Positions 4,435-5,534 of a stretch of DNA of 64,000 bases are shown piece after piece. Origin of the DNA: an uncultured Gammaproteobacteria bacterium (lineage in GTDB: Bacteria > Patescibacteriota > Patescibacteriia > Magasanikbacterales > UBA922); the NCBI GenBank assembly GCA_965231005.1, contig OZ246405.1:610709-674708 (forward strand), in the 5' to 3' direction. The notes below the pieces were generated by a model. That model worked only from the letters and a program-made list of their open reading frames with translations. It made no database searches and was not told the DNA's origin. Position numbers and translations under genes: made by a program. The stretch's first letter is position 1. Each line of letters opens with the position of its first letter.

Positions 4435-4475
4435 ATTTTGTATCAAAAAAACCTTATTTTAGCAAAATATTAGCA

Positions 4476-4502
4476 AAAACCCCTTGACAAAAGGGGTTTT
4501 TT
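4476..4502 (+). terminator. Rho-independent terminator hairpin aaaaaccccttgacaaaaggggtttttt
   Basis: Perfect GC stem (cccctt/aagggg) followed by a T-run. The loop contains the -35 of the next promoter. Confidence 0.6.
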
Positions 4503-4512
4503 GTGCTATACT
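4484..4512 (+). promoter_or_regulatory. Consensus sigma70 promoter TTGACA-17-TATACT embedded in a terminator
   Basis: TTGACA at 4484-4489, a 17-nt spacer, TATACT at 4507-4512. It drives the GC-rich ORF at 4596. Confidence 0.6.
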
Positions 4513-4595
4513 GTGTTGTTAGTAATCTATGCTCTGCCAAGAGTATTGATGCTACATCAAACGCAACAACACAGCTTTTCACGGAGGACAACACG

Positions 4596-5423
4596 ATGAA
4601 AGCAAAGCAGTTTGAGGGAAAGACGCACCTGATCGGTGAGGTCGAAGAAGCGTGGCTCGCTTTCTTCATGTGTGGCTATTTCGCCAACTCGCACCGGTGT
4701 GACCTGCCCACACGCCGCACCCGCCTGTACTTCAACGAGGCCGACAGCTACGAGGTTCGTGGTGAGGCAGCGGGGCATGAAGTCAGTCTGGTCGGTTTTG
4801 ACCCCGGTCGTGGCAGCAACATCGGCCGGCGCCGGTCGACATTTGCCAAGGTCATCGGCTTCCAGGTTCGTCAGTTGACGAGTTTCACCTGGCGATTCGA
4901 GGGCGCACGGTCTGGTGATCGCTGTGAGATCGCTGCCGAGCGTATCGACAACAACCGTTGGAAGGTTTCGTACCTCAGCGATGTGGCTGAGCGCGAGATC
5001 GAGACGCCCCTGTCCGCTTTCGTGCGGATGATCGATCCCGATTCGTTCCAGGTTATCAAGATCCATCTGGCGGAGTGGGTGGCTTGCGTCGCTGGAAAGG
5101 CTGCGCAGATCGCGCAGACCGGCTGCCACGCGTTCCACCCCGAAGTCTTCCGCGCGCTCGAAGAGCTCGCGGGTTTCTACAAGGATGGTGTTCGCATTGG
5201 TCGCTCGTCGTGTCCCTCGTACATGTCGCCGCGACGCGCGGAAGTCCCGCGCTGGTGGCAGACCATGCTCGACCTCCCGGTCGACGACGAGGAGCCGAGC
5301 TGGCGCGAGGGTCATGAGCTGCATGCGGCTTGGATCCTGGCTCACACGGACATTGTCCGAGGAAAGTACGGCAGCAATGCCAACAAGATCCTCGAGCGTG
5401 CTCGTCAGCGCGTGGCTGCGTAG
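4596..5423 (+). CDS. Hypothetical protein of foreign (GC-rich) composition, 275 aa
   Basis: Strong SD (acggaggacaacacgATG). Codon usage dominated by GC-ending codons, unlike the flanks. It has its own promoter and terminator. The antisense ORF 4557..5510 is judged spurious. Confidence 0.5.
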   Translation: MKAKQFEGKTHLIGEVEEAWLAFFMCGYFANSHRCDLPTRRTRLYFNEADSYEVRGEAAGHEVSLVGFDPGRGSNIGRRRSTFAKVIGFQVRQLTSFTWRFEGARSGDRCEIAAERIDNNRWKVSYLSDVAEREIETPLSAFVRMIDPDSFQVIKIHLAEWVACVAGKAAQIAQTGCHAFHPEVFRALEELAGFYKDGVRIGRSSCPSYMSPRRAEVPRWWQTMLDLPVDDEEPSWREGHELHAAWILAHTDIVRGKYGSNANKILERARQRVAA

Positions 5424-5497
5424 ACCCAACAAGGAGACCCGAACTCTTTTCAAAGGTGATATCCAATCGGATACACGGAGGAGTTCGGGGATATCAA

Positions 5498-5525
5498 AAG
5501 AACACCTCAAAAGGTGTTTTTTTGA
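5498..5525 (+). terminator. Rho-independent terminator aacacctcaaaaggtgttttttt
   Basis: 8-bp stem and T7 run, immediately after the GC-rich ORF and a preceding larger hairpin (cccgaactc...gagttcggg). Confidence 0.55.
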
Positions 5526-5534
5526 TTTAGTTTT

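What the first reader, a model, noticed from the sequence alone, without database searches (positions are those of the whole stretch)
4440..5534. Second, single-gene GC-rich insertion with an overlapping terminator-promoter and its own SD
The 275-aa ORF at 4596-5423 has the same foreign composition and a GGAGG SD. It is framed by an upstream hairpin whose loop contains the -35 of a perfect TTGACA-17-TATACT promoter. Downstream is a compound hairpin plus terminator. There is no recognisable product. One-gene cassettes like this are sometimes toxin/immunity or defence cargo, but there is no evidence for that here.
Basis: partly seen in the sequence, partly recalled or inferred. Interest (0 to 1): 0.55.

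Follow-up and report, generated by a model that had tools for sequence, protein, structure and literature searches.

The report
GC-rich orphan gene in a Patescibacteria genome
A real gene of unknown function, ready to be expressed, sits in a variable slot of an AT-rich Magasanikbacteria-like chromosome; its tiny protein family is much more GC-rich than every genome that carries it, which a single recent transfer does not explain.

Summary
ORF 4596-5423 (275 aa) is 61% GC, with GC3 of 74% against about 23% in neighbouring genes. It has a GGAGG ribosome-binding site and an 11/12 promoter, TTGACA-17-TATACT, whose -35 lies in a hairpin. A compound hairpin and a terminator follow it.

The gene is accessory. 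Relatives keep the synteny ppsA ... rplT-infC-ssrA-smpB but carry toxin-antitoxin genes or nothing in this slot. Its codon usage matches the 17.8-28.6 kb island (r 0.73-0.83) and opposes host genes (r about -0.55).

It is not a simple foreign insert. The promoter and terminators are host-type. The family has 12 matching clusters among 1.8 billion representative proteins, and no Pfam, PADLOC, PHROG or PDB match. It is 56-61% GC in all six genome contexts found (33-51% GC), at unrelated positions. In the five AT-rich ones it sits behind nearly the same AT-rich promoter.

In one lineage pair the coding sequence is about 8 times more diverged (dS 0.77) than both flanking genes (dS 0.09-0.11), with dN/dS 0.2. 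That points to replacement by a divergent allele.

The best reading is a horizontally exchanged accessory gene from a GC-rich gene pool of Patescibacteria. Protein function is unknown, and a role in biological conflict is only inferred.

The parts
4452..4469 (+). AT-rich upstream element CCTTATTTTAGCAAAATA, a degenerate form of the GCTTAAATAAGC-like palindrome
   Evidence: The motif has 4 matches in the window against 0.67 expected. It aligns with the upstream element of family promoters in L004, L008 and L010. It also occurs at island promoters and at one host promoter.
4475..4501 (.). Bidirectional terminator-like hairpin ending gene 3904-4434, with the -35 hexamer in its apex
   Evidence: The terminator scan finds it on both strands. 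The fold has dG -18.6 and z -5.0.
4484..4512 (+). Sigma-70-type promoter TTGACA-17-TATACT with a TG extension
   Evidence: It matches 11 of 12 positions. It matches the L008 family promoter at 24 of 29 positions. A 40-nt copy at 80% identity lies inverted at 7174-7213, at the promoter of a small-RNA-like unit.
4513..4595 (+). 5' untranslated leader with a stem-loop at the transcript start (4513-4572) and GGAGG at 4583-4587
   Evidence: The fold has z -3.1. Homologues have structured leaders of roughly 70-190 nt and GGAGG-type ribosome-binding sites.
4596..5423 (+). Coding sequence, 275 aa: short form of an orphan two-domain soluble protein family
   Evidence: GC3 is 0.74. Homologues are 27-49% identical. 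dN/dS is 0.18-0.20 in an allele pair. AlphaFold2 gives pTM 0.75, and 0.85 for the long form. There is no transmembrane segment (maximum hydropathy over 19 residues 1.1).
5438..5489 (+). 3' compound hairpin, about 50% GC
   Evidence: Together with the terminator the fold has dG -45.6 and z -6.8. Homologues also carry 3' hairpins before the terminator, with no sequence conservation.
5493..5526 (.). Bidirectional intrinsic terminator shared with the convergent gene 5535-5966 (-)
   Evidence: The terminator scan finds 15 pairs plus a T run, on both strands.
7174..7213 (-). Inverted paralogue of the target promoter, driving a roughly 95-nt structured RNA-like unit (7080-7174)
   Evidence: Inverted repeat I1 is 40 nt at 80% identity. 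Sequence; fold z -6.9. The two copies bracket the segment that is rearranged relative to relatives.

Best explanation
Region 4440-5534 is a genuine one-gene accessory locus that is ready to be expressed. It lies in the chromosome of a Magasanikbacteria-like member of the Patescibacteria (CPR).

Shown:
- The gene is protein-coding and under purifying selection.
- It encodes the short form of a very small orphan family of soluble two-domain proteins. The N-terminal domain is an antiparallel sheet with helices and the C-terminal domain is all-helical.
- It sits in a variable slot between ppsA and the tRNA-Asp / rplT-rpmI-infC / ssrA / smpB block.
- Its coding sequence has the GC3-rich codon usage of the 17.8-28.6 kb island, not that of the host.
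- The family is GC-rich in all six genome contexts found, and in the five AT-rich ones it is preceded by nearly the same AT-rich consensus promoter.
- In one lineage pair the coding sequence alone is about 8 times more diverged than its flanks.

Inferred:
- The coding sequence belongs to a GC-rich gene pool that is exchanged horizontally among Patescibacteria. Entry is by allelic replacement through conserved flanks and by placement in variable slots.
- The controls are host-type. They are a strong sigma-70 promoter with an extended -10, a 5' stem-loop and 3' hairpins that should stabilise the mRNA, a strong ribosome-binding site, and bidirectional terminators that insulate the gene from its neighbours.
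- The likely outcome is abundant, constitutive expression despite foreign codon usage.
- The protein's function is unknown. My best guess, at low confidence, is an accessory protein involved in conflict or interaction with phage, host cell or competitor. The basis is its patchy distribution, its deeply diverged alleles and the toxin-antitoxin genes in the same slot in relatives.
For: Real gene:
- Codon-position GC is 0.63/0.47/0.74.
- Homologues are found by protein search and share conserved motifs.
- For the L015/L016 allele against L002, dN/dS is 0.18-0.20, and below 0.35 in all 40-codon windows.

Not an assembly artefact:
- ENA contig L001 has the same junctions, and the same pattern appears in unrelated assemblies.

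Accessory status:
- L012 and L013 keep pyk-ppsA ... rplT-rpmI-infC-ssrA-smpB but carry TrmB, SSF, RHH/ParE or HigB-like genes in the slot, with no GC-rich block.
- In L012 the upstream neighbour is followed directly by the 59-aa gene and tRNA-Asp.

Compositional class:
- RSCU and tetranucleotide correlations tie the gene to the island.
- Island genes have the same layout: TTGACAAAATGG promoters, leaders of about 220-340 nt, and AGGAGG.

Family-wide GC excess, gene against the rest of the locus:
- 61 vs 40%, 56 vs 40%, 60 vs 33%, 56 vs 42%, 59 vs 45% and 58 vs 51%.
- The window's 40% includes its GC-rich island. The window median is 37%.

Allelic replacement, L016 against L002:
- Family coding sequence 78.4% identical, dS 0.77.
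- 3' non-coding flank 95.3% identical.
- Next two genes dS 0.106 and 0.090.
- The mutation spectrum is ordinary and there is no template repeat.

The promoter type is shared with the highly expressed rpmI-rplT and tmRNA units.
Against: - No donor or vector was found. The family has only 12 matching clusters among 1.84 billion representatives and none on viral contigs.
- No integrase, att repeat or target-site duplication flanks the gene.
- Only one host is named, L004 as Candidatus Magasanikbacteria. The window is placed by ppsA neighbours. The taxonomy of L002, L010 and L005 is inferred from gene content and promoter style.
- The allelic-replacement evidence comes from another lineage (L002-type), and its 5' boundary is not covered.
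- In two other near-identical pairs no SNP falls in the gene.
- Expression is inferred from sequence only.
- The conflict-related function has no direct support: there is no PADLOC hit, no partner gene and no positive selection in sliding windows.
Confidence: 0.6

Rival explanations
1. One-off recent horizontal transfer. A single gene came from a GC-rich donor, such as a host bacterium of this epibiont. It landed between two terminators and has not yet drifted towards the host's composition.
For: - There is a sharp GC3 step from 0.74 to about 0.23.
- The gene is absent from syntenic relatives.
- It lies beside tRNA-Asp and the tmRNA gene, which are classical integration regions.
- The L002 allele has lower GC3 (0.64) than the L015 allele (0.73), as if drifting towards the host.
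Against: - Five other genomes carry diverged members (27-49% identity) at unrelated loci, all 56-60% GC. That would require many independent recent imports.
- No homologue was seen in a GC-rich context. The most GC-rich context is the 51% GC contig L005, whose organism is unknown.
- The promoter, leader layout and terminators are Patescibacteria-type and conserved across the five AT-rich family loci.
- There is no integrase or att repeat.
Confidence: 0.17
2. A native 'second codon dialect'. Patescibacteria would keep a class of GC3-rich genes, including this family and the island genes. Selection (for example for nuclease-resistant, long-lived mRNAs or gated translation) or GC-biased gene conversion at frequently recombining loci would maintain it. 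Under this reading the GC excess is a property of the genes, not of a donor.
For: - The gene's GC3 (0.64-0.84) does not track host GC. It is highest in the most AT-rich host, L004, at 33% GC.
- The GC excess stops at the edges of the coding sequence while the AT-rich promoter is conserved.
- 5' and 3' stem-loops suggest selection for mRNA stability.
- The island protein at 25072-28593 has GC1/GC2 of 0.44/0.48 but GC3 of 0.82, so the bias is synonymous.
- The locus recombines.
Against: - No mechanism of this strength is known to me.
- Highly expressed host genes (rplT, rpmI, infC, smpB) are not GC3-rich, at 0.22-0.29.
- The family is far too rare and patchy for a conserved native class.
- Relatives L012 and L013 show no GC-rich genes in 23 kb each.
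Confidence: 0.15
3. Single-gene defence, toxin or immunity cargo. This concerns function only and is compatible with any of the origin models.
For: - The same slot holds RHH/ParE and HigB-like toxin-antitoxin modules in relatives.
- In L002 the gene sits beside an AAA_18/nSTAND3-like NTPase.
- The distribution is patchy.
- Two deeply diverged alleles occur at one locus.
- The only two differences between the window and L001 over 14.2 kb are non-synonymous changes in this gene.
Against: - There is no PADLOC, Pfam, NCBIfam or PHROG match.
- There is no conserved partner gene.
- dN/dS is about 0.2 with no window above 0.35.
- There is no nuclease, NTPase or other catalytic signature, and no significant structural match.
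Confidence: 0.2
4. Artefact: a chimeric assembly, contamination, or a non-coding GC-rich element such as a large structured RNA or an antisense gene.
For: - The sequence is metagenome-derived.
- A full-length antisense ORF, 4557-5510, exists.
- Two short JGI contigs of a related allele, L014 and L015, do have odd junctions.
Against: - ENA contig L001 has identical junctions.
- The same architecture occurs in at least five unrelated assemblies.
- Protein-level conservation and dN/dS of 0.2 apply in the + frame.
- The antisense ORF is fragmented in L004.
- There is no Rfam match at the gathering threshold. A relaxed scan gave only below-threshold chance hits over the hairpin and promoter.
Confidence: 0.02

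Closest known systems
Atypical-composition genomic islets or ORFans acquired by horizontal transfer (amelioration framework of Lawrence and Ochman; from my own knowledge)
   Same: It is a short block with codon usage unlike the host. It is absent from syntenic relatives, has an orphan product, and lies next to tRNA and tmRNA genes.
   Different: The polarity is GC-richer than the host. The anomaly is a property of the whole family across six genome contexts. There is no integrase or att site, and the regulatory flanks are host-type and conserved.
Loci with persistent atypical GC and allele replacement through conserved flanks, such as O-antigen and capsule clusters of enterobacteria (from my own knowledge)
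   Same: Deeply diverged alleles sit between well-conserved flanks (dS 0.77 against about 0.1). The compositional anomaly does not decay.
   Different: It is a single cytoplasmic-looking protein rather than a biosynthetic cluster. The compositional sign is opposite. Evidence comes from one allele pair only.
Integron gene cassettes
   Same: It is a compact one-ORF unit with an imperfect inverted repeat downstream, and its product is often an orphan.
   Different: It has its own strong promoter and a long leader. There is no attC core (GTTRRRY / RYYYAAC) in the 3' hairpin. The adjacent ORFs have no Pfam hit; the rest of the window was not scanned for intI. It is not part of an array.
5' stem-loop mRNA stabilisers and 3' protective hairpins (ompA, ermC and aprE type leaders; from my own knowledge)
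   Same: There is a stable stem-loop at the very 5' end of the predicted transcript and stacked hairpins at the 3' end.
   Different: The resemblance is by position and predicted stability only. No sequence family is shared and nothing has been tested experimentally.
SRPBCC / Bet v 1-like (helix-grip) domains, and AlkA-type two-domain glycosylases
   Same: The weak top Foldseek hits for the N-terminal sheet-plus-helix domain are repeatedly SRPBCC or lipocalin-like. The best full-length hit is A. fulgidus AlkA, which has a sheet domain plus helical domains.
   Different: All hits have E of 0.037 or worse and TM of 0.32 or lower. There is no Pfam HhH-GPD or SRPBCC match. This is a lead, not a membership.

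Membership tests
Integron gene cassette | Promoterless ORF followed by an attC site with R''/L''-L'/R' cores (RYYYAAC ... GTTRRRY) | tested here: not met
   The gene has an 11/12 promoter and an 83-nt leader. The arms of the 3' hairpin, CCCGAACTC / GAGTTCGGG, do not fit the attC cores.
Integron gene cassette | Adjacency to intI/attI, or membership of a cassette array | tested here: inconclusive
   The neighbours are ppsA, three small orphan ORFs, tRNA-Asp and rplT-rpmI-infC. The three orphans have no Pfam hit. The whole 64-kb window was not scanned for intI.
tRNA/tmRNA-targeting genomic island | Integrase gene, plus a direct repeat of the tRNA 3' end at the far border | tested here: not met
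   The repeat finder on 3600-7300 shows no copy of the tRNA-Asp 3' part. None of the adjacent ORFs has a Pfam match, integrase or otherwise.
Diversity-generating retroelement target gene | Template repeat and reverse transcriptase nearby, with adenine-specific substitutions | tested here: not met
   There is no second copy of any part of the coding sequence in the window. The allele differences are 102 transitions and 63 transversions with no bias at A.
Known anti-phage defence or toxin-antitoxin systems | Profile match to a described system protein | tested here: not met
   PADLOC returned 0 families. Pfam and NCBIfam returned 0. The only PHROG hit has E 0.11 over 15 residues.
Known anti-phage defence or toxin-antitoxin systems | Conserved partner gene (antitoxin, immunity or sensor) | tested here: not met
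   The neighbours of the family gene differ in all contexts, and the small adjacent ORFs are unrelated.
Known anti-phage defence or toxin-antitoxin systems | Toxicity or protection phenotype | not testable with these tools
   This needs expression experiments.
SRPBCC / Bet v 1-like superfamily (N-terminal domain) | Helix-grip fold with a significant structural or profile match | tested here: inconclusive
Horizontally exchanged accessory gene (generic) | Absent from syntenic relatives, atypical composition, and phylogenetic or divergence discordance with the flanks | tested here: met
   Searches show absence from relatives. Searches show atypical composition. One search shows dS of 0.77 against 0.09-0.11 in the flanking genes.

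The most novel reading that the evidence does not exclude
Some Patescibacteria carry a distinct, self-perpetuating class of GC3-rich one-gene units, including this family and the island genes. Each would pair a conserved AT-rich promoter of the TTGACAAAATGG type with a long structured leader. Their composition would be held far from the genome's mutational equilibrium, either by selection on the mRNA (stability or gated translation) or by an undiscovered GC-rich exchange vehicle specific to these bacteria. That would amount to a second 'codon dialect' inside a 1.2-Mb genome.
Probability: 0.2. Interest if true: 0.8.

Novelty: new variant of a known kind. Interest (0 to 1): 0.5.

Why it matters
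Acquired genes are generally expected to drift towards the composition of their host. From my own knowledge, acquired and orphan genes in bacteria are also usually AT-richer than their hosts.

Here a tiny family is only 27-49% identical between members. It stays 7-27 GC points above six different genome contexts, and in the five AT-rich ones it keeps an AT-rich promoter.

If this reflects a hidden GC-rich gene pool, it points to an unsampled route of gene flow in the Candidate Phyla Radiation. If it reflects selection on synonymous sites, it points to an unusual layer of expression control in these minimal genomes.

The protein also has a confidently predicted fold (pTM 0.85) with no significant match in the PDB, so it is a clean target for structure and function work.

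Tried and rejected
Searches that found nothing:
- Pfam, NCBIfam, PADLOC and PHROG scans of the protein, and a Pfam scan of all family members, gave nothing usable.
- PDB sequence-profile searches gave nothing.
- Foldseek against the PDB and viral libraries, with two models, gave no hit with E of 0.001 or better.
- tblastn and megablast against the phage and plasmid collections gave no match.
- A scan of viral contigs for the family found none.
- The metagenome scan only re-found the L004 locus.
- Rfam gave only below-threshold chance hits over the hairpin and promoter.
- Literature searches for GC-rich genes or codon usage in Patescibacteria, and for the assembly accessions, found nothing relevant.

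Ideas rejected:
- A DGR or hypermutation explanation: no template repeat, an ordinary mutation spectrum, and no SNP enrichment in two other strain pairs.
- A higher mutation rate of GC-rich DNA as the cause of the 8-fold dS excess: the neighbouring GC-rich 456-aa gene has dS of only 0.09.
- A conserved small neighbour gene: the roughly 115-aa ORFs next to family genes are unrelated.
- Positive selection: no window has dN/dS above 0.35.

Left unresolved:
- The odd flanks of L014 and L015 were checked against PHROGs, the phage collection and all held loci, and nothing matched.
- The organisms of L002, L005 and L010 could not be named.
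Full report
**1. Observation**

The window is about 36-37% GC, apart from two regions.
- One is the block examined here: GC is 0.32 at 4001-4500, 0.56-0.61 at 4501-5500 and 0.34 at 5501-6000. The other is the 17.8-28.6 kb island.
- ORF 4596-5423 (275 aa) is 61.2% GC, with GC by codon position of 0.63/0.47/0.74. Neighbouring genes and the ribosomal-protein genes have GC3 of 0.22-0.29.
- The promoter TTGACA(4484)-17-TATACT(4512), with a TG extension, matches 11 of 12 positions and is the best site in the region.
- Hairpin 4475-4501 carries the -35 at its apex (z -5.0). 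A leader stem-loop spans 4513-4572 (z -3.1). GGAGG lies 8 nt before the ATG.
- A compound hairpin (5438-5489) and a terminator (5493-5526) follow the gene (z -6.8).
- Both outer hairpins are bidirectional and also terminate the neighbouring genes.

**2. A real gene in a real location**

- The + frame has the GC3 > GC1 > GC2 pattern expected of a coding sequence.
- The 317-aa antisense ORF is the usual shadow of a GC-rich gene and is fragmented in homologues.
- Protein searches found homologues with many conserved motifs.
- An allele pair gives dN/dS of 0.18-0.20, and every 40-codon window is below 0.35.
- ENA contig L001 reproduces 14,233 nt of the window, including both junctions, with two mismatches.

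**3. The organism and the slot**

- The window carries pyk, ppsA, tRNA-Asp, rplT-rpmI-infC, a tmRNA gene and smpB.
- Its ppsA product is found at 100% identity on a 1,232,850-bp contig. The next-best hits are only 52% identical or less, and many are named Candidatus Magasanikbacteria or Patescibacteria.
- Two such relatives (L012, L013) keep the order pyk-ppsA ... rplT-rpmI-infC-ssrA-smpB-AI-2E transporter.
- Between ppsA and rplT they carry other genes: TrmB, an SSF transporter and RHH/ParE in one, and a HigB-like pair in the other. Neither has a GC-rich block.
- In L012 the homologue of the upstream 176-aa gene is followed directly by the 59-aa lysine-rich gene and tRNA-Asp. In L013 the same module is contiguous on the other strand.
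- In the window the module is split and partly inverted, with the target and two small orphan genes in between.
- A 40-nt inverted copy of the target promoter, 80% identical, lies at 7174-7213. The two copies bracket the rearranged segment.
- The gene is therefore accessory and lies in a rearrangement-prone slot.

**4. Same compositional class as the island**

- Codon usage of the target correlates with four of five island genes (r 0.73-0.83) and is opposite to host genes (r -0.54 to -0.59).
- Tetranucleotide signatures correlate at 0.72 with the island and 0.34 with the host.
- Island genes are built the same way. Each has a TTGACAAAATGG-type promoter (17540, 21724), a leader of about 220-340 nt and an AGGAGG site, and each is separated from the next by AT-rich spacers.

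**5. What a simple insertion does not explain**

- The family is tiny. There are 12 matching clusters among 1.84 billion representative proteins and 8 with E of 1e-10 or better. None is on viral contigs.
- I recovered DNA for six distinct genome contexts, at unrelated positions and with no shared neighbours.
- One of them is named Candidatus Magasanikbacteria bacterium RIFCSPHIGHO2_01_FULL_33_34. Another lies on contigs of 1.15-1.23 Mb.
- In every case the gene is much more GC-rich than the rest of its locus: 61 vs 40%, 56 vs 40%, 60 vs 33%, 56 vs 42%, 59 vs 45% and 58 vs 51%. GC3 ranges from 0.64 to 0.84.
- The window's 40% includes its GC-rich island. Its median is 37%.
- GC3 is highest in the most AT-rich host.
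- The members are only 27-49% identical, so synonymous sites are saturated between them. Long residence in AT-rich genomes should have erased the signal.
- The five AT-rich loci share almost the same AT-rich promoter, TTGACAAAATGGCtTTTTTATGCTATATT, with an upstream GCTTAaTTTAGC-like element. All five also have a structured leader, a strong ribosome-binding site and 3' hairpins.
- That promoter type also drives rpmI-rplT, the tmRNA and a small-RNA-like unit upstream of tRNA-Asp in the window. It is host machinery, not donor DNA.
- The GC step is therefore a boundary between coding and regulatory sequence within one conserved unit, not a boundary between host and foreign DNA.

**6. Evidence for exchange**

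Short JGI contigs carry a second allele of the L002 gene. L016 aligns to L002 over 2.6 kb:

| Segment | Identity | dS | dN |
|---|---|---|---|
| Family coding sequence | 78.4% | 0.77 | 0.154 |
| 3' UTR plus intergenic | 95.3% | - | - |
| Next gene (118 aa) | 96.1% | 0.106 | 0.019 |
| Following intergenic spacer | 92.4% | - | - |
| Neighbouring GC-rich gene (456 aa) | 96.5% | 0.090 | 0.019 |

- Identity jumps at the stop codon.
- Both dN and dS are raised about 8-fold, with dN/dS unchanged.
- The mutation spectrum is ordinary, and the window holds no second copy of the target.
- The neighbouring GC-rich gene does not share the excess. GC content as such and DGR-type mutagenesis are therefore excluded.
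- The simplest reading is replacement of the coding sequence by a deeply diverged allele through recombination in conserved flanks.
- Recombination tracts are visible elsewhere in the same population: 51 SNPs lie within 390 nt.
- The more AT-shifted allele (GC3 0.64 against 0.73) may be the older resident.
- In the window lineage, the only two differences from L001 over 14.2 kb are non-synonymous changes in this gene, L188P and K196Q. Two sites are too few to interpret, and two other strain pairs show no enrichment.

**7. The protein**

- It has no signal peptide or membrane segment.
- AlphaFold2 with the family alignment gives pTM 0.75 for the window protein and pTM 0.85 (pLDDT 86.7) for the 336-aa long form.
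- The N-terminal domain is an antiparallel sheet with helices. The C-terminal domain is helical.
- The window copy and the L008 copy both lack the conserved C-terminal module of about 60 residues.
- Foldseek against the PDB and against viral models finds nothing significant.
- The weak leads are SRPBCC or lipocalin-like hits for the N-terminal domain and A. fulgidus AlkA for the whole chain (E 0.037 or worse, TM 0.32 or lower).
- Function cannot be assigned.

**8. Explanation adopted**

- The gene is a horizontally exchanged accessory gene from a GC-rich gene pool that appears restricted to Patescibacteria.
- It is wired to host-type strong expression signals and insulated by bidirectional terminators.
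- The origin and exchange part is moderately supported.
- The expression part is inferred from sequence.
- The functional guess (conflict or interaction) rests only on context and allele turnover.
- The rivals are set out separately: a one-off transfer, a selectively maintained 'codon dialect', defence or toxin cargo, and artefact.

**9. Novelty and score**

- Atypical-composition accessory genes are a known kind.
- The unusual aspects are the family-wide, host-independent GC excess confined to the coding sequence, the conserved AT-rich promoter that accompanies it in the AT-rich genomes, and the 8-fold excess divergence of the coding sequence over its flanks.
- I found nothing on this in the literature searches.
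- I rate it a new variant of a known kind, with interest 0.5.

Noticed in passing
window 7080-7213 (-): Promoter 7209-7181 drives a strongly folding unit of about 95 nt (dG -40.9, z -6.9) that ends in a terminator. Its apical loop, GCCCCCUCCUUC, mimics the anti-Shine-Dalgarno sequence and would pair with GAAGGAGG. This is a candidate C-rich regulatory small RNA. It has no Rfam match.
   Followed up: partly
window 3904-7027, compared with L012 13137-13907 and L013 13852-14574: The module of the 176-aa gene, the lysine-rich 59-aa gene and tRNA-Asp is contiguous in two relatives. In the window it is split and partly inverted. Inverted 40-nt promoter copies (4480-4519 and 7174-7213) sit at the ends of the rearranged segment, so the segment may be invertible.
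   Followed up: partly
window 3689-3907 and 11418-11636: A 219-nt AT-rich, internally palindromic repeat built from CTAGTTA/TAACTAG-like units is present twice in inverted orientation (85% identity). The two copies bracket the whole tRNA / rplT / tmRNA / smpB block.
   Followed up: no
window 17540-28593: The GC-rich island is a string of one-gene units, each with a TTGACAAAATGG promoter and a long leader. They encode low-complexity proteins: Pro/Asp-rich with zinc ribbons, Ala/Lys-rich, 30% Ala with Pro, and a 1173-aa Cys-rich protein with 18 Dicty_CTDC repeats (E 1.5e-92). The last has GC3 of 0.82 despite GC1/GC2 of 0.44/0.48.
   Followed up: partly
window 5158 and 5181, compared with L001: The only two differences between the window and an ENA contig over 14,233 nt are non-synonymous changes in the target gene (T>C giving L188P, and A>C giving K196Q).
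   Followed up: yes
L014 803-2755; L015 1-158: Two short JGI contigs carry the L002-type allele but break away from it. L014 runs into 60-65% GC DNA with six small overlapping orphan ORFs. L015 runs into unrelated 47% GC DNA. These are either chimeric assemblies or real rearrangements. No phage or PHROG match was found.
   Followed up: partly
L002 11365-11721 (+) and 11999-13369 (-): Two further GC-rich orphan genes (118 aa at 52% GC, 456 aa at 55% GC) lie next to the family gene in another genome. The first has its own TTGACA-17-TATGAT promoter and a long leader. Neither has a homologue in the window.
   Followed up: partly
L002 1287-1674, compared with L003: 51 SNPs are clustered within 390 nt of an otherwise 99.96% identical pair of assemblies. 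This is a clear recombination tract in these populations.
   Followed up: no
L004 9460-9580: A small GC-rich, probably structured element lies just upstream of the family gene's promoter in the Magasanikbacteria locus. It was not examined.
   Followed up: no
window 8532-8929 (-): This is a tmRNA gene with tag peptide ANLVNRVKSAIANAFSTPALATAVA, driven by a consensus promoter at 9235-9206. Relatives have different tag peptides (L012 ANAFAVPTLASAVA; L013 ANLVSKVKNAFRVPSFAPAVA).
   Followed up: no
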